Source: a virus
Direction: 5' to 3' (one strand)
Length of the DNA stretch: 64,000 nt
IMG/VR virus record: IMGVR_UViG_3300030060_004796
Location: 1-64,000 of that record
Positions 10,442 to 28,332 of the stretch are shown here, in pieces. Made by a program: the position numbers and the translations under genes. The first letter of the stretch is position 1. Each line of letters begins with the position of its first letter. The notes under the pieces were generated by a model. That model was not told the DNA's origin, did not search any database, and worked only from the letters and a program-made list of their open reading frames with translations.

Positions 10442-11623
10442 ATGGAATCATTACTAGAAAAAATCAAAGCTTCCTTCAAGTGGAAGAAAACTTCTGATTA
10501 TTGTGCAGAAAAATTAAATATCACAATAGATGACTATGATAAACTAAAAGACTATGTGAAATCTCAAGAATTAATGGAAAATTCTTCAACTTCATATGAG
10601 TATAATTTAGAAAAAGGTGAAGCAAAAATGGAAACAATGAGTTCATCAGAACCAAAATCACCTGAAGAAATAATTGATGTTTTAAATATTGATACCACAA
10701 AGTGGAAATTATCTAGTTATTGGAATAAACAAATGGGTGATCACTGGAGAGTTTCAGCAATGGTAACAAGAATAAAAGATAATGAAATAGATAATGTTGC
10801 TGAGTTATTAAAAGGATTTAAGCCAAAAAAATATAAAGAAGTAAAAAGAATTAAAACTCCAGGTAGAACAAAAACAGCTGGAGTTTTGTCATTACAGGAT
10901 ATACATTTTGGTAAAGAAGGGAATGAAACTATTGATAAATGTTTTGAAGAAACAATTATTGATCTAGTTGAAAGAGCTACAAGTGCTCACCACCTAGAGA
11001 AAATATACTACGTGGTAGGAGGTGATTTAATCAACATGGATACATGGAGTGGTACTACCACTAGTGGAACACCTTTAGATAACTGTATGACTGCTACAGA
11101 GGCTTATATGCAAGCCTTTAATGCCATTCAATGGAGTATTAATTATATTAAACAGTTTTGTGATACTTTACAAGTAGTATATATACCAGGTAATCATGAT
11201 AGACTTTCTTCATTTCATTTAGCTCATGGGTTATCTAAATGCTTTGATAATCCAAGTATACTCTGGGATGTAGTTTATCTTGAGAGAAAAGTATTTACAT
11301 ATGGAGATAACTTCTTTGCATTTGAACATGGTGATGTAAATACTAAAAATTCACTTATGTTATACTCTATGGAATATCCGAGAGAATGGGGTAAGACATT
11401 ATTTAGAACATTATATACAGGACATTATCATCATAAGAAAAAAATAGAATATATAACTGCACATGAAAATACTGGGTTTATGCTTAAAATATTACCAAGT
11501 CTTTCAAGAACAGATTATTATCATTATCATAATAAATTTGTAGGATCAAGAAGATCTGGTGTCTTATCATTACATACTCCAGATAAAGGTGAGATTTGTG
11601 AACTGACATATTCACCTGAATAA
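10442..11623 (+). CDS. Calcineurin-like metallophosphoesterase with N-terminal extension
   Basis: All five motifs are present: DIHFG, GGDLIN, PGNHD, FEHGD, GHYHH. Confidence 0.85.
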   Translation: MESLLEKIKASFKWKKTSDYCAEKLNITIDDYDKLKDYVKSQELMENSSTSYEYNLEKGEAKMETMSSSEPKSPEEIIDVLNIDTTKWKLSSYWNKQMGDHWRVSAMVTRIKDNEIDNVAELLKGFKPKKYKEVKRIKTPGRTKTAGVLSLQDIHFGKEGNETIDKCFEETIIDLVERATSAHHLEKIYYVVGGDLINMDTWSGTTTSGTPLDNCMTATEAYMQAFNAIQWSINYIKQFCDTLQVVYIPGNHDRLSSFHLAHGLSKCFDNPSILWDVVYLERKVFTYGDNFFAFEHGDVNTKNSLMLYSMEYPREWGKTLFRTLYTGHYHHKKKIEYITAHENTGFMLKILPSLSRTDYYHYHNKFVGSRRSGVLSLHTPDKGEICELTYSPE

Positions 11624-12199: not shown

Positions 12200-12871
12200 A
12201 TGACAACAATAGGAGAAGCAGTCTCAAGAGTGAGACAATCTATAAAAGCTGAGGTACAAGATTCCTTTGTTACAGACAGATATATCTATAGCCTTATACT
12301 AAAAAATGCTCAGTTATTAATGAGAAGACAAGACAATGCTAATAAGCTAATGAAGTTTAATGGTGTTTGGCAAGCTTTACCTTTTGTTGAATTAATTGAA
12401 GTAGATAAAGTAGAAGCTAAGTGTGCTGGTATACAAAGTGGTTGTACAATTAAAAGAACTAAAGAAAAACTTCCAGTTTTTATGGAAGGTTATTGGGGGC
12501 CACTTATCCGTACAGTAAGCTCTATAGATACTTCTATTGAAGTACAACCAACAAATCCTGGTACATATACTTCAATGACTAAAACCACATCTCATAAATA
12601 TAATAAAACAAAATATTACTGGTGGTTAAATGATTATATCTACATTCCAAATGTAGAATGGGATGCAATTAAAATAGAAGGTGTTTTTGAAGGAGATATT
12701 TCTAAATGGAATTGTGATGTAGATGATGATTGTACACCTAGATATTTACAGCAAATGTATATTCCAGAATTCTTATTTGCTGAAATTGAAACTCAAGTAA
12801 TGAATCAACTTATGAATACTATGAAAGTTCCTACAGAAGATTCTGATAATAAATTAAATATTAATAGATAA
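12200..12871 (+). CDS. Tail ring / tubular protein
   Basis: 223 aa; 'IGEAVSRVRQSIK...FVTDRYIY' N-terminus; C-terminal 'SDNKLN'; translationally coupled to the next gene (TAATG). Confidence 0.6.
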   Translation: MTTIGEAVSRVRQSIKAEVQDSFVTDRYIYSLILKNAQLLMRRQDNANKLMKFNGVWQALPFVELIEVDKVEAKCAGIQSGCTIKRTKEKLPVFMEGYWGPLIRTVSSIDTSIEVQPTNPGTYTSMTKTTSHKYNKTKYYWWLNDYIYIPNVEWDAIKIEGVFEGDISKWNCDVDDDCTPRYLQQMYIPEFLFAEIETQVMNQLMNTMKVPTEDSDNKLNINR

Positions 12872-13791
12872 TGGCTGTCTCACATAAATATAGAACGTTT
12901 GATCAATTACTTGAAGATGTATCAGTTGATTTTTCAACTCAAGCATTAGAAGGTATGATTGAACCTCAGCAATTAATTAAAGTTGCTACAAGGGTAAATT
13001 ATGATTTAGGTCTTAGAATCAATAGAACAAAAGAAGCTGTTATAGATATTGAACATAGTAAGGGTCAATTACCAGAAGATTTTTATACATTGAATTATGC
13101 ATTTTGTTGTGGGTCATATACGGTTAGTAATACACCTCCAGCAGGGACAACAGTAGATACAACATATACAAAGTATGTTCCAGATCCAGGAGATCCAAAG
13201 CAATGTTTAGATCCTGAAGATTGTAAAGATGTATGTGTAGTTAAAACATGTCCAACTACAACTACAGATGGAAGAACTACAACTACAACTTATGATGAAT
13301 ATATGGTTGTACAATTTGTAGGTGCAGAACAATATAGAACTTATTCAAACTATATGCCTTTAAGAATAAGTACATCTAACAAAGTATTATGTGATTGTCC
13401 AAATGTTAATGTTCAAGCAATGAATATTGCAGAGATAAGAGATAATTATTTAATTACAAATTTTAAAACAGGCAATGTATATATAAGCTATCAAGGATCA
13501 ATGGAAGATAATGAAGGAAATCTTTTAGTCTTAGATCATCCATATTGTAATGAATATTATGAATATGCTTTAAAAGAGAGAATTTTAGAAAATATGATAT
13601 TTGCTGGAGAAAATGTATCTCAACAATTATCTTTTATTCAAGGTAAATTAAGAGCTGCAAGAAATAACGCTCTAGGATTTGTTAATACTCCAGACTTTGA
13701 AGAAATGAGAAAAATATGGGAAGTAAATAGAAGAGCACAATATCATAATTACTATAATATGTTTAAAAGTCATCCAACATTAGGTGGATAA
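12871..13791 (+). CDS. Tail ring / tubular protein (P22 gp4-like adaptor family)
   Basis: 306 aa; 'VYISYQGSMEDNEGNLLVLDHPY...EYALK' is typical of crAss-like ring proteins; lies immediately before the muzzle. Confidence 0.6.
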   Translation: MAVSHKYRTFDQLLEDVSVDFSTQALEGMIEPQQLIKVATRVNYDLGLRINRTKEAVIDIEHSKGQLPEDFYTLNYAFCCGSYTVSNTPPAGTTVDTTYTKYVPDPGDPKQCLDPEDCKDVCVVKTCPTTTTDGRTTTTTYDEYMVVQFVGAEQYRTYSNYMPLRISTSNKVLCDCPNVNVQAMNIAEIRDNYLITNFKTGNVYISYQGSMEDNEGNLLVLDHPYCNEYYEYALKERILENMIFAGENVSQQLSFIQGKLRAARNNALGFVNTPDFEEMRKIWEVNRRAQYHNYYNMFKSHPTLGG

Positions 13792-13804: not shown

Positions 13805-16800
13805 ATGGCTGAGAAGCAAAACACACCAAAATTACAGAATACTTCTGATATAGATACTGACGTATTTGTAAAAGGAATGACTAAAGATCCTGATTCTAGT
13901 ATGATTACTAAGGAGCAATGGACTCATGCACGTAATGCTATTAATAATTCTGTAGATGGTGATCTTGGAACGCTAGGTAATGAACCTGCAAATAAACAAT
14001 GTTCATCAGCTCCTTTTACTATTATTGGAGCTATTCATTTATATGGAGACAAATGGGTTTTATTCTCAACAAATAATCAACAAAGTGAAATAGGAACATG
14101 GGATGACAGTGAATGTAAGTATGAAAGAATAGTAAATGATTTTAGTTGCTATCAATGTTTAGAGCAACTTGGAGGAATAGAAGAAACTCCATGTTTAAAT
14201 TTTAATACTCAACATTTAATTACAGGAGCATCAAAAGAAAACTTTGATTGTTCATGGCAAGTTTATTGGGATGACGGTGTAAATCCATCAAGAACTTTAA
14301 ATTTAGATAATATACCATGGAAGCAAAATGTAATATCTGATGAAGGTGCTGATTGTGTAATATATGAAGATGCTATTCCTTTATGTCTTGATTGTGAAAA
14401 AATAAGACTTGCACCACTAATTGATATTCCATGTATTGAATTATCTAAATCTGTAGATGGAGGTCAATTAAGAAATGGATCATATCAAGTATATATAGCA
14501 TATGTAATTAATGATCAGAAAATAGGTGATTATTATGGTATTTCAAATATACAACCTTTATTTGCACATGAAGATATGTTATCTGGTTTAGAAATAAAAA
14601 TTTCTAATTTGGATAAAGAATTTGAGTATTATGAATTAGTTATAGCTAGAAATACTCAAGGTGAACAAACAGCAAAGCAAATAGGTTTTTATAGTACTGA
14701 ACAAACTAATATAAGTATTGACTATATAAATGAAAAACTTCCTTCTAAACCATTAGGTACATTACCACTAACAACACCAGCTTATGAAAGATCTGATAAG
14801 ATGTATGTTGTAAATGATTATCTTATAAGACAAGGACCTACAGAACAATTTGATTTTAACTATCAACCTTTAGCAAATAATATTCACGTACATTATACAG
14901 TTACTGAATTTCCAGATGACTATTATGCCAAAGGTGGTAATAAACCTACATTCATGCGTGATGAGGTTTATTCATTTTTTATAAGATTTGTCTATAATAC
15001 TGGTGAAAAATCTGCATCTTATCACATACCTGGAAGAGCTCCTTATAATTGGCCTGGTATTACTGATCCTGCAGGTAACAATCCTAATGTATTAGATCCA
15101 TGGCCGGGAAATAATGATTTAGGAACAGCATTATGGAATCAAAATGGTGGTCTTGGTACAGCTGATGTAGACAGATTATTTGAAGTACACAATACTGCAG
15201 ATGATGGATGGAATCCAGCTGGTATAGCTTCAAATACTTTAGAATTACAAACAGATGATGGAGGAAGAGTTATACGTGAAGGACATATGGCATACTGGGA
15301 ATCTACAGAAAGATACCCTCAAGATCCTGTAAGATGGGGTGATTTATGTGGTCAACCTATTAGACATCATAAAATGCCTGATGAAACAACAGCATATGTA
15401 GGAATGTTTGAAGATCCAACAGGAGCAACTGTTGTAAATCCAAATAACTTTTTAGATAGAACTGGACAAAACAATGCAACAATAAATGTATTAGGAGTTA
15501 GATTTACAAATATTGCATGGCCAAGATTTAATGCATCATCAGATGAATTATGTGGCCCAGATAACGGAGCACCAACAGGACCAAGAATCCCAAATATAGT
15601 TGGATACGAAATATTAGTGGGATCAAGAGAAGGTAATAAATCTATTATAGCAAAAGGTATTACAAGAAATATGAGAAGATATAATCTTCCTAATACTTCA
15701 ACAGGTCATGAAATAGGCACAGGAAATCTAACAGGATATATGGCAAACTATCCATTTAATGATTGTAATGCAGATCCTTATCTATCCGCTGGTAATGATT
15801 GGACATATACAAGAAATGGTGGTATAGTTAATCCAGGAGGAAATTACACTGCAGGTGATACTGCAACAAATATTTTTACATTTCATTCACCAGATACATC
15901 ATTTAATAAACCTTTTTTATCTCCGTATGAATTAAAATCATATGGTATATGTACAGGTACACAAGTTGGTAATTTTGTAAAATCCGAAAAACATCCTCAA
16001 CATAAATTACTTAGAAATATTTCTATGTGGATTGCTATAATTGTAGGTGCAGGTTATGCAATTGGAGAGATGCGTGGTAAGAAAAATAAAAAAATGATAC
16101 CACCAAAAGCATTAAATGTAGGTTTGGTTGGTTTTGGAGAACAGCACGGTGGTAATAGAACTACAATTGTTAATACACCAAGTACATCATTTGCTAATGG
16201 ATGGACAGCTATTGCCACTACAACTAGCGCATCATTTAATGAAAATACAACAGCAAGAAGTGGAGGTAGACAAGGATCAGCTGCTCCGTATGATGATGGT
16301 AGTAATGTTGTAGGTGGAGTAGTAACTGGAGCAGGAACTTCAACAGCTCCAACGTGGGCTCCTATTGGTTCTTTAGGTAGACTTGATACAGATGGTGATC
16401 AATTTATGATGGCTAACTATAATACTAATTTAGCTAATCCTCTTACTGGTATAAACTCTGGAGCTGGTGGACAAGGTGTTTTATTAAGTACAGCAACTGT
16501 TGCCGGAGCACCAAAACTATTTCATTCAGGTTCAAGGGCTCTTGGTATGAATATTGGATATGAACCAAATGTAAGAAATAACATGAGAAACTGGGGTCCT
16601 AATAGAGGTTATATTGGGGCAGGTGAAGAATGGACTTATGAAGGAACTAGATTTGAAAGCATGCCTTCATTAACTCAAATTTTATTTGGTGCATATCAAT
16701 TTATGATGTTCACTGCAGAAGGTGGTCAAGTTATAATAGACCTTATATATAATTTAGTATCATATCAAGATTATGCTTGGAAATATAATAGTCAAGGTTT

Positions 16801-19800
16801 GTATTGGTCTACACAACAAAGAAGTGCGGGAGGTGTATTTAGACAACTAGTTAATAAAGGAAGATATGTTGGTTCGTCCATGCAAAATCTTACAGCTAAT
16901 ATTAGAATTAATAATGTTCAAAGACCAAAAACAGTTGTTATAAATACAGTAACAAATGGAGCAGATTTTGATCCTATAGGAACTTTTGATCAATCTAGAT
17001 TTTGTATTGGTCCTACTTCTACAGGAGGTATTTTAGGTGCATGGTTTAATCCAGGTGCAGAAGTAAACTCTACTATTGGTGCACACTATTGCGCTTTAAA
17101 AACTAATTTTACAAATCAATATGGACAAATAGATCAAATTAAACAAATTCCTGTTGGATGTATAACATACTTTGCTGATCAAATTAAACCTGAAGATGAT
17201 CACAGTCCAAGAGATCTTGATGACATGCTATTTACCACAGACATTGTCTATGGAGGTGATTGTTATATAAATAGATATTCAGAAAAAGTTATAATGCCTT
17301 TCTTCTGGGATTTTCAAAAAGACATGCCAGATGGAATGCCTTATGATTATAAACTAAGAGCTAATGTACCACGTCCTGTATTTTGGATGGACACTAAGAA
17401 ATTTGAATTATCTCAATTAGTTAGAGACATTGTAAATTTTGGATGGTTAATTAGTCAAATTACTGGTGGTGGTGGTGGTGGTTTAAGTAACTCATTACCT
17501 TCAGGATTATTTGTATTAGATAGACCTACTGGTGATCTTGGTGGTGATGATGGTACTAACCAAACAACTGGTGCTGGTGGAATTGGTGCGCCTTCTGGTG
17601 GTGGACCAGGTGCTTTGGCTAATGCACCAAATATGGCTGTATCAGCAACACAAGATAATAATAGAAGATCAATTTTCCATGTTGTAAATGGATACATGTA
17701 TACTCATTGTAATGGAGTTAATGAATTTTATTGTGAATCTCCTATTAATACAGCATTTAGAGATTGGGAAGATGTAGATGAAAAAAGACATTATGATAGA
17801 TTAGAGTATACAGATGTAGATGCATTATTTCATGCAGATATTATTAAAAAAGATAACTACTATAAATATGATACTTCATTAAGTAAATCAAGATTTAATA
17901 CTCAACTTATATCATATGGATTTATACAAGCAAGAGATTATGATCCTTTAGTAGCTGAAGATTGTTACACACATTATCCTAAAAGATTGATGTACTCTCT
18001 TCAAGCTCAGTTAGAAGCTAAGAAAGATTTCTGGAGGGTATTCCTACCATACAACTATAAAGACTTTAAGAATAAGGTTAATGTCATCAAACCAGTTAGT
18101 AAGAGTGGTGCAATGATTTTATTCCCACACTTATCTCCAGTACTTTGGCAAGGTGTAGATCAACTAGAAACAGACTTAGGAACTAAGCTTACTATTGGTG
18201 ACGGAGGACTATTTAGTCAGCCTCCACAAGCTATTGTAAATGCAGATTTACCACATGAATATGGATCATGTGAAAGCGCAAGAAGTGTTGTTAATACACC
18301 GTCAGGTTTATTCTTTATTTCTCAAGCACAAGGTAAAATATTCCAGTACACTCAAGGTCTTACCAATATTGCAGATCAGGGAATGAAACAATGGTTTAAT
18401 AAATATTTACCATCAATTCTTTTAAAACAATTTCCAGAAATGGAACATTGTGATAGTTGGATAGACAATCCAGTTGCTGGAGTAGGATGTCAATCAGTAT
18501 ATGATCCTAATTATGATTTAGTATATTTTTCTAAAAAAGATTTTGAATGTACATTACCTGAATGTATAGATTATGTTCCTTGTGAAGGATTTGTATATAA
18601 TCATTCAAAATGTGAAAATGTAGAACCACAAGCATGTTGTCCTGAAGGAGATGATCCTTATAATCCTTATGTATTTGTTCCAGGCGGACCTACATGTCCA
18701 CCAGGATTTGCTGTTGTTAGTTGTTTAAATGGTAGTCCTTGCTGTACAGATTATAGTGGTAATCCTCCATTTCCTGCTACCATAACAGAACCAACATGTG
18801 AAAGAATAATAACATTACCTGCAGAAGAAGATCAATCAAGTGGTCAAGTTGATATTGTATTTGCGGTAGATAGTTCAAATTCAGTGGACGGTGCTATACC
18901 ACAAAATGTTGGTAATATGCAAAACTTTGTAAGAACAATGATTACGGAGTTAAACATAAATAATGGAATAACTAATGGAGATATAAGAGTTGGTTTAATT
19001 CATTTTGGTGGAGGTAGAGCTGTACGTTTTCCTTTATTTAACGGTCAGCAATCTTCTCTTCCAAATTCTGATGAAATGTTTGAATTTGCAAATCAAATTA
19101 CACTAACTAATAGTGTACCAACATTATTGAATTGGATTGGAAATCCAGGTGCCTGGAATGGTACTTTTCATCCAGCAGATTATAGATCTACATACGGTGC
19201 TGCAAGTAACTCTATTGCTAATGGTGGACCTAGTTATGACCTACCATATGGTACTGATATACTTGCTGGTATTTGGGGTGGACAAAATTTACTATATGGT
19301 CTTGGAGCTAGAGCATGCCCTAAAGTATTAATTACAATTTTTGATGGGCCAATGGGATATAAATGTGATGGAGGAGGTGTTGCTGGTGCAAACAATCCAT
19401 TAGCAGGATCAGCTGGAGCAGGTTTCTTCTACACCAATACACCGTACAGTGTTGGTGGTATTACAGGACCTGATACATTTAATGGAATGACAGTTCCAGA
19501 TCCAGCTCTTGTAGCAGCAGGTACACCAGCTATATCAACACCAGATATTAGATGGGATGATGCATCTTTAGGTGGAGGCTATGATCCTTGTTTTAATACT
19601 AATCAAGGTTTTGCTCAAACTGCAAATGCATATGATGCACAATGGTTTGAAACTAATGTTAGAGCAGCAGGTAACTATACTCAACAAGTTCCATTTATTC
19701 AAAAAAATTATTCTATTGTTGTTGATCCACAAGGTAGTGCTCCTACAGCTACTCATATAGCTTATTCAGAAAGATATGCTGGTGGTGGTGGATTATTACC

Positions 19801-22204
19801 AGCAGATTGTACATTTGGAGGAAGTTTTTCTAACATTGCACAAATTCAAGCTATTGCGCAAGATATAATTACTGCTATTACACCGCCTCCTGTTTATTCA
19901 TGTCCACCTGGATGTGACTTAGTAACAACATCTGCAGGTCAATTTTATTGTGAATGTATTGATTATTTAGATCCTGAATATATTGATATTACATCACCGG
20001 TTAATATAGAGGATGATTTATATTTTAAAGATGTTTCATGGACAGTAAGTTACGATCCTAAATATAAAGCATGGATGTCTTTCCATGATTGGCATCCACA
20101 ACTAATGATTCCTAGTTTAAATCATTTCTTTACAACAAATACTTATGAAGATCTAGAATCACAGCCAAGTTGTCCTCCAGGATTTACTTGGAATCCTACA
20201 ACACAAACATGTTGTCAAACATACCAAGGAGAATTTGAGGCAGATATTATTGTTGATGAAGTTCCTGTTGAAATAGATATTGATTCTATTCCTTGTAAAA
20301 TAGATATTGTATTAGCTTTAGATGCATCAGGATCTATGGGTCTTGGAGCTGACGGAGCTAATGATAATTGGAATGCTGCTGAAATTTTTATAAATGAGTT
20401 TGTATTTAACCTAGCAGATGAAATGATTATAGGTAATATACAAATAGGATTAAATCATTGGTCTAATCCAACTTTTGCAGGTATTAATGCAGCTAGCGGA
20501 CTTAATCCAATTACAAATGATACATACCCATCAATAGGAAATGGAAATACAGATGTTATTGGTGGTGTTACATATACTTATGCACAAGCAGTAGTACCTG
20601 ATGGAACAGGTGGTTTATCTATGACTAATAATCCAAGATTAGTATATGATGCAAGTGGAAGTGCAGTAACAACACAGTTTTGTTTTGCAACTAATCCTCA
20701 ACAGGGTACTGCAACTGAAATGGCAGAAGCTTATCAGTATTCTCAAAATCAATTATGGGAGGTAAAAGCTTCTGCTCTAGGAGATAGAACATTAGATCCT
20801 GGATATAGAAGAATATTAGTTTTTATATCTGATGGTGGAGATTTTGTAACTCACCCACTTAATCCTGTAGCTAATCCACCAAACATGGATGGAACTGCAT
20901 TTGGTAATACAGGCGGAGGTGCTTTACATAGTCCTCCTAGTAGTGGTGGTGGAATGATAACACCACAAAATAATACTGTAGATTGGAGTAATAACAATGT
21001 AGGGGGTGCTGGAACAGATGCTCTAATTAATGGTCAACAAGTACATTCTCAAAATATAACTATTTTTGCAAGCAATGGAGGAGGTGCACCAGCTGCAGGA
21101 AGTCAAACTGGGTATGAAGCTGTTGCAAATTGTGCTACTTATGGAACTTGTAATAATATGTGGGATGTAGATACAGGTCCAGGATGTAATCCTTTACAAG
21201 ATTGCCCATCAACAGTTGCAAGTGCAATAAGTAGTAATTTATGTACACTTCCTCCTGTTTGTATTTGTCCTCCAGGATATGAAAGAATAACTAGCAATTT
21301 AGATGGTACTGCACCACCTCACCAAGTTTATAGTGATCTAGATGATTGTGAACCAGAAAGAGCTGGTATATGTAGAAAATTAGAATGTGAATGTGATGTT
21401 GCTAATTTACCAATACCAACTATTCCTACTACAACAACAGGAAACTGCCCAACAGATATTTTAAATGGAATAGCTTTATACTACAATGAAGACACTTTTG
21501 TAGGAGATCCATCTTGGACAGGATACTCTAGTAATCCTGTAATGTGTCATTATGATTATGAATGTTGTGTTGAAGGTACAACAATTAGAGGTGGAATATG
21601 GAAACATAATGATAGATGTGATTTATTTGCAAACTACTATGGTAAAAATTATCCATGGGAAGTTGAATGGGTAGAAACTGTTGGTCAATCCGTAAATACT
21701 ATTAGAAGTATTGAATATCAATTAGAGTCATATATTTATAAAGGTAACTTAGCAGATGATTGTGGTGACAGGTTCCATGATTTAGATTGGAATTTTGATG
21801 AAGCTATTATTCATAACACAGAACAAGTTTCTGGATTACTAAGATTTAATTTAGATCCAAAAAATAATGTACCTTTGATAACTGAATACCCAATAATTAC
21901 AGGTAATGATATTCAAATACTATATAGTAAGGTAGAACAAAAATATAGATTTAATCAGTTCTGGGATATTACAAGAGACAGAGGAGAGTTTGATCCTAAC
22001 TGGAATTCATCAATATTTATAACACAGTTAAACGGTTACATAAGAGATCTAAATCAAGCAAACTTAGATTACTTTAAACCTTCCTTACAACGTAAGAAGT
22101 TTAGACATTACTGGAATAAAGTAGTTCTTAGAAAAAATATTTCAGGTAATAGAAAAATGATATTTAAATTAGCTAATACAAAAATTAATGCATCCTTTAG
22201 ATAA
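13805..22204 (+). CDS. Tail muzzle / stabilisation protein (P22 gp10-like) with two inserted vWA domains
   Basis: N-terminal 'FVKGMTKD...NAINNS...LGNEPAN', internal 'SWTVSYDP...WMSFHDW' and C-terminal 'IWKHN...NYYG..YP' resemble crAss-like muzzles; MIDAS DSSNS at 18869 and DASGS at 20321. Confidence 0.75.
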   Translation: MAEKQNTPKLQNTSDIDTDVFVKGMTKDPDSSMITKEQWTHARNAINNSVDGDLGTLGNEPANKQCSSAPFTIIGAIHLYGDKWVLFSTNNQQSEIGTWDDSECKYERIVNDFSCYQCLEQLGGIEETPCLNFNTQHLITGASKENFDCSWQVYWDDGVNPSRTLNLDNIPWKQNVISDEGADCVIYEDAIPLCLDCEKIRLAPLIDIPCIELSKSVDGGQLRNGSYQVYIAYVINDQKIGDYYGISNIQPLFAHEDMLSGLEIKISNLDKEFEYYELVIARNTQGEQTAKQIGFYSTEQTNISIDYINEKLPSKPLGTLPLTTPAYERSDKMYVVNDYLIRQGPTEQFDFNYQPLANNIHVHYTVTEFPDDYYAKGGNKPTFMRDEVYSFFIRFVYNTGEKSASYHIPGRAPYNWPGITDPAGNNPNVLDPWPGNNDLGTALWNQNGGLGTADVDRLFEVHNTADDGWNPAGIASNTLELQTDDGGRVIREGHMAYWESTERYPQDPVRWGDLCGQPIRHHKMPDETTAYVGMFEDPTGATVVNPNNFLDRTGQNNATINVLGVRFTNIAWPRFNASSDELCGPDNGAPTGPRIPNIVGYEILVGSREGNKSIIAKGITRNMRRYNLPNTSTGHEIGTGNLTGYMANYPFNDCNADPYLSAGNDWTYTRNGGIVNPGGNYTAGDTATNIFTFHSPDTSFNKPFLSPYELKSYGICTGTQVGNFVKSEKHPQHKLLRNISMWIAIIVGAGYAIGEMRGKKNKKMIPPKALNVGLVGFGEQHGGNRTTIVNTPSTSFANGWTAIATTTSASFNENTTARSGGRQGSAAPYDDGSNVVGGVVTGAGTSTAPTWAPIGSLGRLDTDGDQFMMANYNTNLANPLTGINSGAGGQGVLLSTATVAGAPKLFHSGSRALGMNIGYEPNVRNNMRNWGPNRGYIGAGEEWTYEGTRFESMPSLTQILFGAYQFMMFTAEGGQVIIDLIYNLVSYQDYAWKYNSQGLYWSTQQRSAGGVFRQLVNKGRYVGSSMQNLTANIRINNVQRPKTVVINTVTNGADFDPIGTFDQSRFCIGPTSTGGILGAWFNPGAEVNSTIGAHYCALKTNFTNQYGQIDQIKQIPVGCITYFADQIKPEDDHSPRDLDDMLFTTDIVYGGDCYINRYSEKVIMPFFWDFQKDMPDGMPYDYKLRANVPRPVFWMDTKKFELSQLVRDIVNFGWLISQITGGGGGGLSNSLPSGLFVLDRPTGDLGGDDGTNQTTGAGGIGAPSGGGPGALANAPNMAVSATQDNNRRSIFHVVNGYMYTHCNGVNEFYCESPINTAFRDWEDVDEKRHYDRLEYTDVDALFHADIIKKDNYYKYDTSLSKSRFNTQLISYGFIQARDYDPLVAEDCYTHYPKRLMYSLQAQLEAKKDFWRVFLPYNYKDFKNKVNVIKPVSKSGAMILFPHLSPVLWQGVDQLETDLGTKLTIGDGGLFSQPPQAIVNADLPHEYGSCESARSVVNTPSGLFFISQAQGKIFQYTQGLTNIADQGMKQWFNKYLPSILLKQFPEMEHCDSWIDNPVAGVGCQSVYDPNYDLVYFSKKDFECTLPECIDYVPCEGFVYNHSKCENVEPQACCPEGDDPYNPYVFVPGGPTCPPGFAVVSCLNGSPCCTDYSGNPPFPATITEPTCERIITLPAEEDQSSGQVDIVFAVDSSNSVDGAIPQNVGNMQNFVRTMITELNINNGITNGDIRVGLIHFGGGRAVRFPLFNGQQSSLPNSDEMFEFANQITLTNSVPTLLNWIGNPGAWNGTFHPADYRSTYGAASNSIANGGPSYDLPYGTDILAGIWGGQNLLYGLGARACPKVLITIFDGPMGYKCDGGGVAGANNPLAGSAGAGFFYTNTPYSVGGITGPDTFNGMTVPDPALVAAGTPAISTPDIRWDDASLGGGYDPCFNTNQGFAQTANAYDAQWFETNVRAAGNYTQQVPFIQKNYSIVVDPQGSAPTATHIAYSERYAGGGGLLPADCTFGGSFSNIAQIQAIAQDIITAITPPPVYSCPPGCDLVTTSAGQFYCECIDYLDPEYIDITSPVNIEDDLYFKDVSWTVSYDPKYKAWMSFHDWHPQLMIPSLNHFFTTNTYEDLESQPSCPPGFTWNPTTQTCCQTYQGEFEADIIVDEVPVEIDIDSIPCKIDIVLALDASGSMGLGADGANDNWNAAEIFINEFVFNLADEMIIGNIQIGLNHWSNPTFAGINAASGLNPITNDTYPSIGNGNTDVIGGVTYTYAQAVVPDGTGGLSMTNNPRLVYDASGSAVTTQFCFATNPQQGTATEMAEAYQYSQNQLWEVKASALGDRTLDPGYRRILVFISDGGDFVTHPLNPVANPPNMDGTAFGNTGGGALHSPPSSGGGMITPQNNTVDWSNNNVGGAGTDALINGQQVHSQNITIFASNGGGAPAAGSQTGYEAVANCATYGTCNNMWDVDTGPGCNPLQDCPSTVASAISSNLCTLPPVCICPPGYERITSNLDGTAPPHQVYSDLDDCEPERAGICRKLECECDVANLPIPTIPTTTTGNCPTDILNGIALYYNEDTFVGDPSWTGYSSNPVMCHYDYECCVEGTTIRGGIWKHNDRCDLFANYYGKNYPWEVEWVETVGQSVNTIRSIEYQLESYIYKGNLADDCGDRFHDLDWNFDEAIIHNTEQVSGLLRFNLDPKNNVPLITEYPIITGNDIQILYSKVEQKYRFNQFWDITRDRGEFDPNWNSSIFITQLNGYIRDLNQANLDYFKPSLQRKKFRHYWNKVVLRKNISGNRKMIFKLANTKINASFR

Positions 22205-25200
22205 TGAAGAAACCAAACCTTAAATATAATTTACCTAGTTATTCTGAAAAGTTTTTAGAATCTCTTAATCCTAGGATGCAGGCGTTAAGATCCTCATTAG
22301 GTTATAGTGATTATTCTCCTTTTAGAAATGAACCTTTCATAGATATTAAAACTCCAACGGGTATGATAGATATGTCAAATACAGGTATTCCATTATATGC
22401 TAATGGTAGGCTTTTAGCTCCATATTCTGGATTACATAATATGGGAACAACAAACGTTAGAGAAATACCTGCACGTAACATAGAAAATTTTACAGTCAAA
22501 TTTCCATTAAAAAAACATTTAGATAACAAGTTTAGACTTAGTGGAAATGTAAATCCATCAATTAATCTTAATAGTCCGTATTTATTAGATCTATATGGTA
22601 GATTAAGAGGAGAATATAATTTAAATAAAAATGTAAATATTTTTGGAGAAGCAACTACATCAACAACAGATGGTGTTAGTATTAATCCAGCAACAATAAA
22701 AGGTGGTTTAAATATTAATTTCCAAGATGGTGGTCAGTTAATGAGAGCTCAATATGGAATAGAACCTTATTTAGCAGTTCAAGATAATACATATGTTGAT
22801 ATACCACCACCACCTCCAGCACCAACAAAAGTTATAGATCCATGGCCTCAAGGTTCATATAGACCAGCTGATCCAGAACCTGCATGGTATAAAAAATTAC
22901 TTAATGTTGTAGCTCATCCAATGGAGGCTTTTGGTAGAAGTATTGCTAATCAAGATTGGTGGACAGGTGACTTGGGACAAGGAATACCAATGAGTCCACA
23001 ACATAGTGCAAGTACTTTGGGTGGTTTTGATTTGCTCAATACATTTGTTAATCCTGCTAGTTGGATAGAAGATGTAACTGATTCTGAATCTTTAGGTGAA
23101 GGTGCCCTTAATACAGCAATGATATTACCTATTTTTAAAGGTGGTAAAGTAATTAAACATGCAGATGAAGTTGTTGATGCTTCAAAACAAATAACTAAAG
23201 GTTCAGGTAAAGTAAAAATAGAAGATCCAAATGCATTATATAGAGTAGTAGATGTTCCTGTGGGAACAAGTGCAGATGAAATAGTTAAAGCTGCAGAGTA
23301 TGGCACAACAATACCAAAAGTAACAACTACAGGAAGACGTACAGGATATTCACAATTACAAAGAGAAACTCCTTTTGATGTATTAAATACTACTAGTAAT
23401 CAAGGATGGATTTTAGGTAGAGGAACAAATGATCCAGGTAATTTACTAAATTTATATGGAGGAAAAAATCCTTATGTAATAAAGATGGGTAGAGGAAATC
23501 CTTATGTAGGAGCAGAAAGTCTTAGTGCTATTAATCAAAGAACAGATATTTTAAGAAATTTTACTTTTCCATACACTCAAAATGTAGGAAAATGGAATCC
23601 ACTTAAAGGTCAATATGATTTACCTTTAGAACTGGGTGCAGGTGTATATACAACAGTTGGAAAAAGTGTAGATGATCTTGCCAAGATAATGCCAGGATCT
23701 ATTGTTAATCCTAATATGGTAAGTAGAGGTAGCAATAATATTACTACAATATTTGGTCCAAAAGGTTTTCAAGTTAGACAACCACAAGAAGTTTTACCAA
23801 TGAGTGAATATATAAAACGTGTAGGAAATAATCCTAATTTTAAATTTAATCTAGGAGGATCATTACCAAAAGCACAAGAAGGACCAGGCACTGATAATGA
23901 AAGATTAGATGCACATTCACTACATCCTGTTGCATCTCAGTCAAACTGGAAAGATTTACTAAGTTATAATATTAATCCATTAAATTGGCCTAATATTTTT
24001 AAACATAGTATAACAAGACCAGCTGAAATAGCTTTTCAAGGAGGGATAAATGAATGGTTAGCTGCAAATGTAAGACCTGGTGAGTATCCAAATATACCAC
24101 AATTAATAGGTGAACTTGAAGGTGGAAACCATTATATGAGAAGTATTAAAAATCCTGGTGGATATATTATGAATCAGGTAGATTCAGAGCCTTGGACAGA
24201 TAAGCAGGGAGATTTAACAATTGATGAAGAAGCTTGGAGAATGTCTTTGGGATTACCTGGACAACCTGGAGACATACCTAATAAATATATATTTAAATCA
24301 GATAATGTACCTTCTATAGGTGCAAATGAAGGAGATGTTTTTTATACTACAGATTTATTTGATTGGGATAAAGCAATTAATAAATTTAATAATCTAAGAA
24401 ACGAGTATGGTACAGAAGACTTTGATTTTTCTGATGTAGAAAATTTTAACCCAGCACAACGTTCTAGGGATCTAGACACTGAATATTGGAAGAAAAAAGA
24501 AGAGTATGAAGAAAGCATGAAGGATTCAGATGAAGAAATAGATTTTCATAGTACAGAAGAAGCTAAAATATTAAGGGAACAAATTAAAAACTTTGAGATG
24601 ATAAAAGGATATCACAAAGTACTAGATAAAAGTGGACAACCAATTCCTAATACTTATAGTTTTGTAGGAGGAGGATCTGATTATATAACGGATAGGGGGT
24701 TTGAAGAAGGCCACACCTTAGATCCTTTTGCAAATCTTACAATGAGTATGGGGGAAGATGATAAAGGTAGATTTATATCTTATTATGATAAATATGATTT
24801 TGATAGTCCAATAACTAGGAATTTTATAACTCCTATAAATTTCTATGATAAAAGATATATAAAACAAAATGATGATGGACAATGGATAATAGATCCAGAT
24901 CTAGATCCAGATCAACCAAGGAAACAAGATGGTGGTGGTGTAGACTTTAGCTCACTTCAAAAAGGAATTAAATGGGTTGAAAGTTTAAATGGTGAGTTAA
25001 TGAAAAATACACAATCATCTGCATCAGGTTACTATGGACAACTTTTTGATGAAATAGAATATGATGGAACAAGAGATGAATTTATTGCTGATACAACTTT
25101 TCAAGATGAGCTATTTAGAAAAAGAGCACATGGTGAAATTGAAGGTGTCCCAGGATTAATATCTAATGGAATAGAACTAGCAGAAGAATATAAAGATGTA

Positions 25201-28200
25201 GATCATGGACTAACTACTTTAGAAATAGCTGGTTTATCTAATATGCTAGGAAGACAAGGAACAAGAGAATATCTTGGAAATGTTATAAGAGATGGTAGAA
25301 CACTTGCAAATGTATTTCCACATTTATATGGAGATGATGTAAATCAAGCAAATAAAACACCTGATGAATATATTCAAAAGTTTAATGAAGGCCTAACAAA
25401 AAGAGAAGGTGGTGAATTTTTAAATAAAATAAGAAGACTAAATCAACAATTAAAAATATATAACTCTGGTGGTAGAATATCTCCACTAGCAAAAAAAGAA
25501 TTGATTGATCTAGAAATGATTAAACCTAAAATGCAAGGTGGAGGGTCAGTTCAACAAAGTTCTTATGTAACTAAAAGAGGAGATAATCTAAGTAGGATAG
25601 CTAGAAATAATAATATGACATTATCTGAGTTATTAGAATTTAATCCAAGATATTTAAATAACCCAAGTGCAATAGGAGTTGGAGATGTTATACAATTGTC
25701 TGATGCACCAGTTCAAAATAACTCTACACCTAATATGGTGTATGAAGTAAAGGGTGGAGATAGCTTATCAAAAATAGCAAGTCAATATGGTATAAGATAC
25801 CAAGATATTGCAGCATTAAATAATATAAATGATCCTACTAAAATAATGCCTGGACAGGTTATAAGACTTCCAGATAATGCTGTTGTTAGAGGATCTAATG
25901 TAACACAACAACAACATAGAGCACATTCAGTATATATACCTAGTCAAAGTAATGTTATTGTAAATTCAAATACTGGTACAAATGAAGTGTGGGCTAAAAG
26001 AGAACTAGATTCTGATGGAAATTGGAAAACTACAGGTAAACGTGCTTTAATCAATGAAATAAATAAAGATACTCAAGCAAATAGAATTGTTAGAGGTATG
26101 AATGATGTTGCTGAATCTGAAACAATAAATTATACAATTCAGAGTGGAGATATGCTAGGTAAAATAGCACGACAAAATGGTGTATCTGTACAAAAATTAA
26201 TGGAGGATAACAATATCACTGACCCTAGAAGAATACAACCGGGTCAAGAACTTACAATAAATAAGTCAACAGGAAATCCATATATTATTGTGGATGAAAA
26301 AGCTGGAAGAATGCATGTATATTATCCAGGAAATTCTGATCCAGTAAAGAGTTATCCTATTGTATCAGGATTAAATGAAGGAGATGCACAAACTAAAACA
26401 GTGATTAAATTCTTTAAGGATAATGAAGAAATACCACAAGAAGAACTTCAACCACTTATGGATAAACATGGTTTTGATGAGGTTGGACAAATTACATCTC
26501 TTCCAGGATATACTAGTGAAACAATGTGGGATCTTGGAAACAAATCAACGGGTGCTGGTGTTTACACTATTGATGCAGTAAATGAAAAAACTAAATATAT
26601 GGGAAATTCTTCTTCATTTGTATTAGCAAATCAAGCAGGTGATAGACCTGGTACAGTAATACACTCTACACCCAGTGCAAGTATGACAGGAAGATTAAGA
26701 GCATTAGATGAGGGTATGTCAGGTGATGAAGCTAGAGCATTAGGTATTGGTACAAATGGATGTATAAATGGAACTTGTAGTGCAATGACAGAATTATTTG
26801 AAAATCCTGATATAGGTAATGGAACACAAGTGTTTGTATTACCTGAATGGGAGGGAGATAACTTTGTATATGAAAATGGTCAAATAAACTTTTATACAAG
26901 ACAGTCAAATGATGAAAGATCAATGACATATGAAACAGAAAGCGGTCAAGTAATGGTGAATCCTCAAGGGTTAAATGAAACTCCAGGAAATAAGCAAGGT
27001 AATTATAAACCTATTAATATTACATTTGACAAAGAATACTATCAAAATAATTCTGAAAGATATGATGGAAGTGCTGACAATGAGAATGCAGAATTTAAAA
27101 AACATACACAACCATTTTTACAAGCATTGACAGGTAATAAAAAAACCATGATGGATAAATTTGGAATGGATGGAGATACATATAATGATCTGTCTATGAT
27201 TGCTTTTGGAATTTATGCTTATGAAAGTGGAATGGGAGATATTAATAGTAGTCTTGAAAATGCAACAAAATTTGCAGCAAAAGCTGGAGGTATGGGTCAA
27301 ACTAATCCAGACGTAGTTTCTAAATACAATACATATGGTTTAAGAGATCAAGATAATAGTATAGGTTTTACACAAATACAATGGCAATGGTTAGATGAAG
27401 AAGAAAAAGAAATGTTAGGGAAATTAGATATTGATGAATCTAACTATGCGGAACATTTAATGGATCCTGCAAAATCTGCAGATGTAACAATGGCTATATT
27501 ATACAACCGTCATAAAAATAATCAATCTGCAGTAAATATAAGAAATGATAAAGCTAGAGAAGAAGCAATAGCTAATGGTGAAGAATTTAAAGACAGTGAT
27601 AAAGAAGTTTATGATCCTTTTCTATATCTTCCAAAAACCTGGAATAAAGCGGATGGATATACAGATATGGTAAATAAATATACTGACTACATTACTGTAA
27701 CAGAAACAGATATTGATGATGTTGATAATAGTGTGATTGTCAAAGGAGAATACTCTGATGATAATGAAGCATATAACATAAGAGAAGAACTGAAAAGACA
27801 AGAAAATTTACATGGCCCTAATGCAGATTGGAAAAGTAAATCTACACAAATTATTGAAGATGTAGGTGATTTCCTTGGTGTAGATGGTTACACAGCTGAT
27901 GAAGGTGTAGTAGGAGATGTTCTTGACAAAGCTATGGACTATGTTGGAAAGGACGCAAAAGATGTAACATTTGGTAATATAGCATCAGATGTTTATGATG
28001 TAGGTGCGCAAGCAGTAGATAGAACTATAGATTCTGTTGTTGATGGTTATCAAGCTGTAACAAATGCTGCATCAGATGCTGCTGATGCTGTTGGTGAATG
28101 GTGGGATAATGTAGATTTGAATCCTCTTTGGAAACTAGGAGGAGAGTTTGGAGTAAAAAATCAAGTACAATTTTATGATGACTATATCAGTGGTGTATAC

Positions 28201-28332
28201 AAAGGAACAAGACAAGAAAATAGTGCAAATAAATTATATGATAAACTAAATAGAATGTATTACAATGATTCTAAGAAATCAGGTAAGAGTCAAATTGATG
28301 TTATGAGATCTATCCTGCATGGCAATAGGTAG
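22204..28332 (+). CDS. Internal cargo polyprotein: lysozyme/transglycosylase-like domains, 3 LysM, L,D-transpeptidase-like (YkuD) and other modules
   Basis: LysM at about 25564, 25741 and 26131; YkuD pattern 'IIVDEKAGRMHVY...IHST...TNGCING' (H 26662, C 26761); 'VES...SSASGYYGQ' (E 24979); 'YESG...GFTQI' (E 27223). Confidence 0.8.
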   Translation: MKKPNLKYNLPSYSEKFLESLNPRMQALRSSLGYSDYSPFRNEPFIDIKTPTGMIDMSNTGIPLYANGRLLAPYSGLHNMGTTNVREIPARNIENFTVKFPLKKHLDNKFRLSGNVNPSINLNSPYLLDLYGRLRGEYNLNKNVNIFGEATTSTTDGVSINPATIKGGLNINFQDGGQLMRAQYGIEPYLAVQDNTYVDIPPPPPAPTKVIDPWPQGSYRPADPEPAWYKKLLNVVAHPMEAFGRSIANQDWWTGDLGQGIPMSPQHSASTLGGFDLLNTFVNPASWIEDVTDSESLGEGALNTAMILPIFKGGKVIKHADEVVDASKQITKGSGKVKIEDPNALYRVVDVPVGTSADEIVKAAEYGTTIPKVTTTGRRTGYSQLQRETPFDVLNTTSNQGWILGRGTNDPGNLLNLYGGKNPYVIKMGRGNPYVGAESLSAINQRTDILRNFTFPYTQNVGKWNPLKGQYDLPLELGAGVYTTVGKSVDDLAKIMPGSIVNPNMVSRGSNNITTIFGPKGFQVRQPQEVLPMSEYIKRVGNNPNFKFNLGGSLPKAQEGPGTDNERLDAHSLHPVASQSNWKDLLSYNINPLNWPNIFKHSITRPAEIAFQGGINEWLAANVRPGEYPNIPQLIGELEGGNHYMRSIKNPGGYIMNQVDSEPWTDKQGDLTIDEEAWRMSLGLPGQPGDIPNKYIFKSDNVPSIGANEGDVFYTTDLFDWDKAINKFNNLRNEYGTEDFDFSDVENFNPAQRSRDLDTEYWKKKEEYEESMKDSDEEIDFHSTEEAKILREQIKNFEMIKGYHKVLDKSGQPIPNTYSFVGGGSDYITDRGFEEGHTLDPFANLTMSMGEDDKGRFISYYDKYDFDSPITRNFITPINFYDKRYIKQNDDGQWIIDPDLDPDQPRKQDGGGVDFSSLQKGIKWVESLNGELMKNTQSSASGYYGQLFDEIEYDGTRDEFIADTTFQDELFRKRAHGEIEGVPGLISNGIELAEEYKDVDHGLTTLEIAGLSNMLGRQGTREYLGNVIRDGRTLANVFPHLYGDDVNQANKTPDEYIQKFNEGLTKREGGEFLNKIRRLNQQLKIYNSGGRISPLAKKELIDLEMIKPKMQGGGSVQQSSYVTKRGDNLSRIARNNNMTLSELLEFNPRYLNNPSAIGVGDVIQLSDAPVQNNSTPNMVYEVKGGDSLSKIASQYGIRYQDIAALNNINDPTKIMPGQVIRLPDNAVVRGSNVTQQQHRAHSVYIPSQSNVIVNSNTGTNEVWAKRELDSDGNWKTTGKRALINEINKDTQANRIVRGMNDVAESETINYTIQSGDMLGKIARQNGVSVQKLMEDNNITDPRRIQPGQELTINKSTGNPYIIVDEKAGRMHVYYPGNSDPVKSYPIVSGLNEGDAQTKTVIKFFKDNEEIPQEELQPLMDKHGFDEVGQITSLPGYTSETMWDLGNKSTGAGVYTIDAVNEKTKYMGNSSSFVLANQAGDRPGTVIHSTPSASMTGRLRALDEGMSGDEARALGIGTNGCINGTCSAMTELFENPDIGNGTQVFVLPEWEGDNFVYENGQINFYTRQSNDERSMTYETESGQVMVNPQGLNETPGNKQGNYKPINITFDKEYYQNNSERYDGSADNENAEFKKHTQPFLQALTGNKKTMMDKFGMDGDTYNDLSMIAFGIYAYESGMGDINSSLENATKFAAKAGGMGQTNPDVVSKYNTYGLRDQDNSIGFTQIQWQWLDEEEKEMLGKLDIDESNYAEHLMDPAKSADVTMAILYNRHKNNQSAVNIRNDKAREEAIANGEEFKDSDKEVYDPFLYLPKTWNKADGYTDMVNKYTDYITVTETDIDDVDNSVIVKGEYSDDNEAYNIREELKRQENLHGPNADWKSKSTQIIEDVGDFLGVDGYTADEGVVGDVLDKAMDYVGKDAKDVTFGNIASDVYDVGAQAVDRTIDSVVDGYQAVTNAASDAADAVGEWWDNVDLNPLWKLGGEFGVKNQVQFYDDYISGVYKGTRQENSANKLYDKLNRMYYNDSKKSGKSQIDVMRSILHGNR

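What the first reader, a model, noticed from the sequence alone, without database searches (positions are those of the whole stretch)
18560..21560. Two intact vWA/MIDAS domains inserted at separate sites in the tail muzzle
vWA1 has 'VDIVFAVDSSNS' (18869), 'YGTDI' and 'ITIFDG' (19343). vWA2 has 'IDIVLALDASGS' (20321), 'QGTAT' and 'LVFISDGG' (20831). They are separated by a muzzle-core segment (SWTVSYDP...WMSFHDW, about 20030-20130), so these are two independent loop insertions. MIDAS vWA domains mediate metal-dependent adhesion in integrins and pilus tip adhesins (PilY1, RrgA). Inference: the muzzle, thought to gate DNA and cargo exit, here also acts as a receptor-binding tip.
Basis: partly seen in the sequence, partly recalled or inferred. 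Interest (0 to 1): 0.75.

Follow-up and report, generated by a model that had tools for sequence, protein, structure and literature searches.

The report
Two vWA adhesion modules in muzzle
The tail-end "muzzle" protein of a complete 120-kb marine crAss-like phage carries two integrin-type, metal-binding (vWA/MIDAS) domains on cysteine-rich stalks, spliced into two neighbouring loops that relatives use as swappable display sites, so they probably help the phage bind its host, though this is untested.

Summary
Alignment with insert-free homologues shows two inserts (residues 1581-2046 and 2111-2594) around a conserved 64-aa core piece. AlphaFold models of both match vWA domains (Z 16-18.6 to Mfa5 tip pilin and the integrin alphaM I-domain). 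Both have a complete D-x-S-x-S...T...D set.

New here:
- The sites map to two tight turns in the C-terminal beta-propeller of crAss001 gp44 (H1200/C1201 and D1235/G1236). They are not in the distal "crass" domain, so "tip" is not shown.
- The two inserts are paralogous cassettes (CPPG Cys frame + vWA + Cys frame), and each site carries its own old lineage.
- Among 118 marine homologues, 95 have a vWA at site 2 and about 61 at site 1. Others have nothing, a bare stalk, unknown domains or a reprolysin-like protease. The core tree needs at least 11-12 state changes per site.
- The vWA parts diverge far faster than the core (13-50% versus 60-94% identity).

vWA muzzles are therefore common in this uncultured clade. 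This scan has already noted them on other genomes. I found no paper describing them. Receptor binding is plausible but inferred.

The parts
13805..22204 (+). Muzzle protein gene (2799 aa, P0001)
   Evidence: Pfam crAss_MUZ PF25731 scores 93.5 bits against a cut-off of 27. PHROG virion structural protein. The gene follows CrAss_Ring_2 and CrAss_Ring_1 genes. Foldseek matches 7qok_A with probability 1.00.
18545..18829 (+). Insert 1, N-terminal Cys-rich beta stalk (residues 1581-1675, contains CPPGF)
   Evidence: Absent from P0118, Lbo-JY46 and csAssE-Sib. Conserved Cys at 1582, 1587, 1593, 1603, 1612 and 1665. The model shows short beta hairpins with pLDDT up to 95.
18830..19909 (+). vWA1 domain with inserted arms (residues 1676-2035); MIDAS residues D1689, S1691, S1693, T1817, D1847
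   Evidence: Pfam VWA 40 bits. Model pLDDT 79, pTM 0.77. VIA Z 18.6 to 6tnj; Z 17.6, rmsd 2.5 A over 189 residues to 8ce6.
19910..19942 (+). Insert 1, C-terminal Cys frame (SCPPGC...CEC, running on to about residue 2051)
   Evidence: Conserved Cys at 2033, 2037, 2049 and 2051. Collinear with the C-terminal frame of insert 2.
19943..20134 (+). Conserved muzzle core piece B between the inserts (residues 2047-2110)
   Evidence: BLASTP to Lbo-JY46 1379-1453, csAssE-Sib 2000-2056 and phi17:2 2052-2096. Found in 118 of 120 homologues. Corresponds to gp44 about 1201-1235.
20135..20284 (+). Insert 2, N-terminal Cys frame/stalk (residues 2111-2160, SCPPGF...CC)
   Evidence: 54-84% identical to the nearest homologues, far above vWA2 itself. 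Retained alone in the stalk-only relatives P0101, P0102, P0052 and P0061.
20285..21256 (+). vWA2 domain (residues 2161-2484); MIDAS residues D2173, S2175, S2177, T2304, D2343
   Evidence: Model residues 115-438 match 6tnj at Z 16.1 (176 aligned, rmsd 2.7) and 1mf7 at Z 15.1. Pfam is below cut-off.
21257..21586 (+). Insert 2, C-terminal Cys-rich stalk (residues 2485-2594, CICPPGY...CRK.ECEC)
   Evidence: Conserved Cys at 2480, 2486, 2488, 2515, 2523, 2528, 2530, 2548 and 2581. Matches ins2 HMM positions 270-360 even in relatives with no vWA.
21587..22201 (+). Conserved C-terminal muzzle core C (residues 2595-2799)
   Evidence: 77-94% identity to the nearest homologues. BLASTP to Lbo-JY46 1460-1654, E 8e-20. 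hhalign to gp44 1236-1371.
12200..13791 (+). Two tail ring protein genes directly upstream (context)
   Evidence: Pfam CrAss_Ring_2 E 6e-18 for 12200-12871 and CrAss_Ring_1 E 3e-8 for 12871-13791.

Best explanation
The gene encodes the tail muzzle of a marine crAss-like podophage. Two paralogous cassettes of about 470 aa are spliced into two neighbouring tight turns of its C-terminal beta-propeller. Each cassette is a disulfide-type Cys-rich CPPG stalk carrying a vWA head with a complete MIDAS and extra arms. If the muzzle is a hexamer, as in crAss001, the virion displays 12 such heads. They would sit around the ring-proximal shoulder of the muzzle rather than at its extreme tip. Proposed mechanism (inferred): a MIDAS-bound Mg2+ or Ca2+ ion, both plentiful in seawater, is completed by an acidic group of a host-surface ligand. 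This gives multivalent, metal-dependent attachment that holds the muzzle against the outer membrane. Rapid divergence and cassette gain, loss and replacement at the two sites retune specificity. Because the gate loop lies in the same propeller (blade 4 in crAss001), binding could also be coupled to opening. That last step is speculative.
For: Shown:
- Muzzle identity and synteny.
- Two inserts relative to insert-free homologues: P0118 has 12 and 11 aa at the two sites; Lbo-JY46 and csAssE-Sib are contiguous there.
- Mapping to gp44 H1200/C1201 and D1235/G1236: BLASTP E 2e-6 and hhalign 94%.
- vWA folds, with the best matches to adhesins: Mfa5 Z 18.6 and 16.1; RrgA, GBS104, PilB and SpaC Z 16-17; alphaM I-domain Z 17.6 and 15.1.
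- Both domains have all five MIDAS residues. Across the family, 48 of 61 site-1 modules and 73 of 95 site-2 modules keep all five.
- vWA1 is 27-50% and vWA2 13-37% identical to the 12 nearest homologues, whose cores are 60-94% identical.
- The two loops are display sites. Inserts run from 5 to 1771 aa and from 10 to 770 aa, and the core tree needs at least 11 and 12 state changes.
- Some relatives carry a reprolysin-like metalloprotease at site 1, E 1e-8 to 1e-11.
- 39 of the protein's 65 Cys lie in the insert region. Like other outer virion proteins it is Cys-rich (2-5%), whereas the six downstream giant proteins, presumed cargo/ejected by crAss synteny, hold 12 Cys in about 13,400 aa. This fits an external, oxidised location.

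Established knowledge: MIDAS vWA domains bind ligands through a metal-completing acidic residue. Integrin alphaI domains are likewise vWA domains inserted in a loop of a seven-bladed propeller.
Against: - No binding, metal dependence or virion location has been measured, and no member of the clade is cultured.
- The sites lie in the propeller, not the distal crass domain that the crAss001 authors proposed as the cell-contact surface. Whether the turns face outward in the hexamer was not computed.
- Non-adhesive vWA domains (TFIIH p44, Ku80, Rpn10) match almost as well, at Z 14-16. The fold alone therefore does not show adhesion.
- About a fifth of family modules have lost one or more MIDAS residues, and some relatives lack the domains altogether. 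The domains are thus dispensable.
- Fast divergence could reflect relaxed constraint rather than host-driven selection.
Confidence: 0.55

Rival explanations
1. The vWA heads are intra-virion docking sites. Their MIDAS binds an acidic residue of a tail fibre, hub or other appendage protein, so the cassettes anchor accessory tail parts to the muzzle collar rather than touching the host.
For: Many vWA/MIDAS domains mediate stable protein-protein contacts inside complexes; TFIIH p44, Ku and Rea1-MIDAS are among the structural matches. The sites are ring-proximal, near where appendages attach in podophages (PMC10172136). The upstream 792-aa Cys-rich protein shares the CPPGF frame.
Against: A conserved internal partner should constrain the binding face, yet the vWA parts are the fastest-diverging segments. 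The domains are lost or replaced at least 11-12 times while the core is kept. Replacement by a protease does not fit a docking role.
Confidence: 0.18
2. The modules give weak, non-specific adherence to marine particles, exopolymers or cell surfaces generally. This would resemble Ig-like decoration domains that raise encounter rates, and would not determine host specificity.
For: The domains are dispensable, with insert-free and stalk-only relatives. MIDAS residues are lost in about 20% of modules. There would be 12 copies per virion if the muzzle is hexameric.
Against: Most modules retain a perfect MIDAS, and the two site-specific lineages are old. The best matches are specific tip adhesins.
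Confidence: 0.12
3. The modules lie inside the tail lumen and hold or regulate cargo proteins or DNA at the gate.
For: The gate loop is in the same propeller, and cargo fragments bind the muzzle in crAss001 (PMC10172136).
Against: Twelve modules of about 50 kDa are unlikely to fit the channel. The frames are Cys-rich like outer virion proteins, whereas the presumed cargo proteins are almost Cys-free. Inserts of up to 1771 aa occur at the same site.
Confidence: 0.04

Closest known systems
crAss001 gp44 muzzle protein (PDB 7QOK; Pfam crAss_MUZ PF25731)
   Same: Homologous N-terminal and C-terminal core (Pfam 93.5 bits; BLASTP gp44 1083-1209 = query 1443-1589, E 2e-6; Foldseek probability 1.00). 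Same gene order after the ring proteins. The published idea that muzzle insertions alter surface properties and that the muzzle contacts the cell.
   Different: gp44 (1371 aa) has tight turns at 1200/1201 and 1235/1236 where this protein has cassettes of 466 and 484 aa. The insertions published for gp44 relatives are in the crass and IG2 domains, not the C-terminal propeller. No vWA has been reported in gp44 or its relatives.
Integrin alpha I-domains (alphaM/CD11b 1ido, 1mf7, 8ce6; alpha2 1aox)
   Same: vWA fold with a perfect MIDAS (Z 15-17.6, rmsd 2.5-3.1 A, 18-23% identity). Like the alphaI domain, it is an inserted domain in a loop of a seven-bladed beta-propeller (established knowledge).
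   Different: Unrelated host protein. Here there are Cys-rich stalks, about 150 extra residues of arms, and two copies per chain. No partner beta subunit. No evidence of open/closed allostery.
Bacterial pilus-tip vWA adhesins (Mfa5 6tnj, RrgA 2ww8, GBS104 3tvy, SpaC 6m3y, PilB 7b7p)
   Same: Top structural matches for both modules. More residues align (219-234) than with I-domains, because the vWA core carries inserted arms. The domain is displayed at the end of a filamentous or tubular organelle.
   Different: No pilin, isopeptide or sortase features. Sequence identity is only 14-17%. In 1.84 billion representatives, the only strong matches are muzzle proteins or fragments of them; the other hits cover just a short N-terminal stretch of the vWA.
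'Evolved' Dit/Tal baseplate proteins of siphophages with carbohydrate-binding modules inserted in loops (from my own knowledge, not tested here)
   Same: Same principle: a conserved tail-end scaffold protein carries exchangeable host-binding modules in surface loops.
   Different: Different scaffold, different phage morphotype, and a different module type (CBM rather than vWA/MIDAS).

Membership tests
crAss-type muzzle protein (Pfam PF25731) | Sequence match above the curated cut-off | tested here: met
   93.5 bits against a cut-off of 27, three stretches. The C-terminal piece matches model positions 1180-1221 weakly. P0093 matches 1109-1188 just before site 1.
crAss-type muzzle protein (Pfam PF25731) | Gene position directly after tail ring protein genes and before large cargo/vRNAP genes | tested here: met
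   CrAss_Ring_2 at 12200-12871 and CrAss_Ring_1 at 12871-13791. Giant ORFs follow from 22204 onward.
crAss-type muzzle protein (Pfam PF25731) | Structural correspondence to the gp44 propeller | tested here: met
   Foldseek 7qok_A probability 1.00 over 179 columns, though E is only 0.019. hhalign of an insert-free C-terminal profile to gp44 952-1371 gives 94%.
crAss-type muzzle protein (Pfam PF25731) | Hexamer capping the tail barrel | not testable with these tools
   Assumed by analogy with crAss001 (PMC10172136).
vWA domain with MIDAS | Rossmann-like vWA fold | tested here: met
   vWA1 Z 18.6 (6tnj) and 17.6 (8ce6). vWA2 Z 16.1 (6tnj) and 15.1 (1mf7).
vWA domain with MIDAS | D-x-S-x-S after beta1, Thr before alpha3, Asp after beta4 | tested here: met
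   D1689/S1691/S1693/T1817/D1847 and D2173/S2175/S2177/T2304/D2343. Their positions agree with the model's secondary structure.
vWA domain with MIDAS | Bound divalent cation and metal-dependent ligand binding | not testable with these tools
   Needs biochemistry or an experimental structure.
Gram-positive / type V pilus tip adhesins | Pilin architecture (sortase or lipoprotein-sorting signals, isopeptide or strand-exchange domains) around the vWA | not tested
   No test for pilin or sorting features was run. The flanks here are muzzle core and CPPG Cys frames, and sequence identity to the tip adhesins is only 14-17%. I treat the resemblance as one of fold and display logic only.

The most novel reading that the evidence does not exclude
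The C-terminal propeller of the muzzle is a programmable sensor platform on the DNA-exit gate. Two cassette sites accept exchangeable heads (vWA adhesins, a metalloprotease, unknown domains) on a reusable disulfide stalk. As in integrins, ligand binding at the MIDAS of a propeller-inserted vWA domain would be transmitted mechanically to the propeller and so to the gate loop, coupling host recognition directly to opening of the tail in an abundant, uncultured group of marine phages.
Probability: 0.12. Interest if true: 0.8.

Novelty: new variant of a known kind. Interest (0 to 1): 0.55.

Why it matters
How crAss-like phages recognise their hosts is largely unknown, and attention has gone to their fibres and the distal crass domain. 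This family shows that the muzzle propeller carries two hot spots where adhesion or enzyme modules are exchanged. The commonest module is an integrin-type MIDAS domain. That gives concrete, testable candidates for host-range determinants in abundant uncultured marine phages, such as metal-dependent binding and MIDAS point mutants. It also gives a sequence marker, the CPPG-framed cassette, for finding displayed modules in other tail proteins. The parallel with integrin alphaI domains, a vWA inserted in a seven-bladed propeller, is a notable case of convergent architecture.

Tried and rejected
- A sequence search of the whole protein against PDB chains gave only a marginal mussel PTMP1 vWA hit (E 0.049). 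gp44 was not found by sequence.
- hhalign of a 14-sequence full-length alignment against gp44 aligned only the N-terminus. The C-terminal mapping needed an insert-free sub-alignment.
- The search for related loci with the single sequence returned only 2 IMG/VR loci, so I used protein ids instead.
- My first insert-1 HMM was spoiled because MAFFT placed the fragment's first residue far upstream. I rebuilt it from extracted inserts.
- My first MIDAS conservation counts were biased, because I had chosen rows that contain D.S.S. The unbiased counts replace them.
- Pfam found no domain in the muzzle homologues of cultured phi17:2, csAssE-Sib and Lbo-JY46. It also found none in the large unknown inserts of P0072, P0077 and P0042. 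The CBM_14 hit in P0051 is only the CPPGF frame.
- Searches for cellular relatives of vWA1 found essentially only muzzle proteins or fragments. No donor could be named.
- The ESM Atlas added only 'VWA'. BFVD gave weak generic phage and giant-virus vWA hits.
I therefore could not check disulfide pairing, MIDAS geometry or whether the insert ends are adjacent.
- I considered a gene fusion or frameshift artefact and rejected it: the frame is continuous and dozens of homologues have the same length and architecture.

Full report
**What is there.**
The finding lies in a single 2799-aa ORF, 13805-22204 on the + strand. The window is the first 64 kb of a 120,198-bp IMG/VR virus record that CheckV rates complete. 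The protein matches Pfam crAss_MUZ (93.5 bits, cut-off 27) and PHROG virion structural families. It directly follows genes matching CrAss_Ring_2 and CrAss_Ring_1 and precedes a run of giant ORFs. That is the crAss-type tail and cargo gene order.

In GenBank phages the only relatives are distant, at 23-28% identity. They are the muzzle homologues of Leptolyngbya phage Lbo-JY46, Cellulophaga phages phi17:2 and phi4:1, Flavobacterium FpV-type phages and the epsilon crAss-like csAssE-Sib. In csAssE-Sib the gene is annotated as the muzzle protein.

**Checking the observation.**
All the quoted motifs exist once.

- vWA1 passes Pfam's VWA cut-off (40 bits against 23.8).
- vWA2 does not pass by sequence (23.4 bits against 27).

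**Are they insertions?**
BLASTP against Lbo-JY46 shows three collinear blocks:

| Query residues | Lbo-JY46 residues |
|---|---|
| 21-1580 | 10-1386 |
| 2047-2110 | 1379-1453 |
| 2595-2799 | 1460-1654 |

The query therefore has two extra segments, 1581-2046 and 2111-2594, around a 64-aa core piece. csAssE-Sib gives the same picture.

A search of 5.8 billion proteins found more than 700 homologues, almost all from marine metagenomes and on contigs of up to about 120 kb. In 118 of the best 120, the three flanking anchors are found. The spacing between them ranges from 5 to 1771 aa at site 1 and from 10 to 770 aa at site 2. P0118 (1676 aa) has only 12 and 11 aa.

**Folds.**
The AlphaFold model of residues 1581-2046 used 45 aligned sequences and reached pLDDT 79 and pTM 0.77. 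It has about 95 residues of short beta hairpins followed by a vWA domain (model residues 96-455). Its matches:

- Mfa5 tip pilin, 6tnj: Z 18.6.
- CD11b I-domain, 8ce6: Z 17.6, rmsd 2.5 A over 189 residues, 23% identity.
- RrgA, GBS104, PilB and SpaC: Z 16-17.

The model of residues 2047-2799 is weaker overall (pLDDT 66), as expected for propeller fragments taken out of context. Its residues 115-438 are nonetheless a vWA domain. They match 6tnj at Z 16.1 and the alphaM I-domain at Z 15.1. The core part hits the crAss001 muzzle 7qok_A with probability 1.00.

In both models the MIDAS Thr sits just before a helix, and the Asp sits at the end of the strand corresponding to beta4. In vWA2 the family-conserved Thr is T2304.

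**Where in the muzzle.**
- BLASTP aligns gp44 1083-1209 with query 1443-1589 (E 2e-6).
- hhalign of an insert-free C-terminal profile covers gp44 952-1371 (94%).
- Site 1 corresponds to the turn between VYFTYKDH and CLCYSE, at gp44 1200/1201.
- Site 2 corresponds to the turn between FYAFKD and GKMWEQF, at gp44 1235/1236.

According to the crAss001 paper, residues after 1021 belong to the seven-bladed propeller. The propeller sits above the IG domains and the distal crass domain, and it carries the gate loop in blade 4 (PMC10172136).

The cassettes are therefore on the ring-proximal propeller, not at the tip. The same paper already suggested that the muzzle contacts the cell and varies by insertions, though in the crass and IG2 regions. 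I could not compute whether the two turns face outward.

**The cassettes are paralogues.**
Insert 1 and insert 2 align collinearly, from the CPPGF...CC frame through beta1-alpha1-beta2 (31% identity, E 5e-7). They align again at the C-terminal PP..CPPG frame. A family HMM of insert 2 hits insert 1 at E 2e-19.

In a tree of 142 vWA modules, 44 of 47 site-1 modules form one clade. Three (P0017, P0026, P0027) sit among the site-2 modules. The site label needs 2 changes on the tree, against about 40 in shuffles. This was FastTree only.

Each site thus carries an old lineage of its own, with occasional transfer between sites. Searches of 1.84 billion representatives, and of proteins of similar length, found the module essentially only in muzzle proteins.

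**A cassette system.**
Tally among the 118 homologues:

- 95 have a vWA at site 2.
- About 61 have a vWA at site 1.
- 46 have a vWA at both sites.
- 12 have a vWA at neither site.

These 118 are the best-scoring hits to a double-vWA query, so the proportions are biased upward.

On a tree built from the core only, the state changes at least 11 times at site 1 and at least 12 times at site 2. P0118 (no inserts) is nested among site-2-vWA proteins. P0052 and P0061 differ from P0075 by a core distance of about 0.01, yet keep only a 132-aa stalk at site 2.

Stalk-only forms match just the two Cys frames of the HMM. Other relatives have unknown domains of 400-770 aa in the same frames. P0064 and P0093 carry a reprolysin-like metalloprotease at site 1.

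**Signs of function.**
Identity to the 12 nearest homologues, by region:

| Region | Identity |
|---|---|
| Core segments (Gly-rich 731-1000 excluded) | 60-94% |
| Insert 2, N-terminal frame | 54-84% |
| vWA1 | 27-50% |
| vWA2 | 13-37% |

Despite this divergence, all five MIDAS residues are kept in 48 of 61 site-1 modules and 73 of 95 site-2 modules. These counts replace the biased ones.

The insert region holds 39 of the protein's 65 cysteines. Outer virion proteins in the window contain 2-5.5% Cys. The six downstream giant proteins, presumed cargo or ejected proteins by crAss synteny, have 12 Cys in about 13,400 residues. This argues that the cassettes are external.

**Interpretation.**
The structural claims are solid. 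The functional claim is that these are metal-dependent adhesion heads displayed on stalks, which help bind the host and tune specificity. It is the best-supported reading (about 0.55) but is inferred from fold, motif conservation, evolutionary behaviour and the company kept at these sites.

The rivals are:

- docking of other virion parts (about 0.18);
- non-specific adherence (about 0.12);
- a lumenal role (about 0.04).

vWA domains from non-adhesive complexes match nearly as well. A fifth of family modules have lost MIDAS residues.

**Novelty.**
I found no paper linking a muzzle protein with a vWA domain. GenBank relatives lack the inserts. vWA domains as such are known in many phage proteins.

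This scan has already flagged vWA inserts in muzzle proteins of several other genomes, and one follow-up reached a similar verdict. The arrangement is thus common in nature and new only to the literature. I rate it a new variant of a known kind: a tail-end scaffold with exchangeable host-interaction modules.

Noticed in passing
window 22204-62589 versus 636-22204: Sharp cysteine partition. The six giant downstream proteins, presumed cargo or vRNAP by crAss synteny, have 12 Cys in about 13,400 aa (0-0.3%). The upstream virion and tail proteins have mostly 1.5-5.5%. This fits ejected proteins that must stay unfolded-competent and outer proteins that are disulfide-stabilised.
   Followed up: partly
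window 3598-5976: A 792-aa protein with 5.2% Cys and no Pfam or PHROG match carries ECPPGF..C and CAPP/CTPP motifs like the frames around the muzzle cassettes. The same stalk may display a domain in a second tail protein.
   Followed up: partly
window 22204-28332: A 2042-aa protein directly after the muzzle has three LysM repeats (E 2e-40) and a YkuD L,D-transpeptidase-like domain (E 5e-6). It is probably an ejected peptidoglycan-acting protein.
   Followed up: no
relatives P0064 (residues 1950-2131) and P0093 (residues 1932-2192): A reprolysin-like M12B metalloprotease domain occupies muzzle site 1 in some relatives, next to a site-2 vWA.
   Followed up: partly
relatives P0052, P0061, P0087, P0014, P0101, P0102: Stalk-only forms at site 2 (132-167 aa): the two Cys frames remain but the vWA head is gone. 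In P0052 and P0061 this is a very recent loss relative to P0075.
   Followed up: yes
window 10442-11623: A 393-aa SbcD/Mre11-like DNA repair exonuclease (phrog_704, E 4e-45; weak Metallophos) sits among the tail genes, just upstream of the ring proteins.
   Followed up: no
own genome G000:C1:85218-85391 (-), outside the window: A third, weak vWA match (16.5 bits, below cut-off) lies in a 424-aa ORF elsewhere in the genome. crAss001 also has a separate vWA-like protein, gp52.
   Followed up: no
window 15995-16804 (muzzle residues 731-1000): A Gly-rich segment of the muzzle core is much less conserved (36-53% identity) than its surroundings (60-80%) among close homologues.
   Followed up: no
L003:2569-9438 (Cellulophaga phage phi17:2 gp043): This cultured relative has its own segment of about 300 aa at site 1 (between residues 1734 and 2052) with no Pfam match. 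It is a possible experimental handle on the display site.
   Followed up: no
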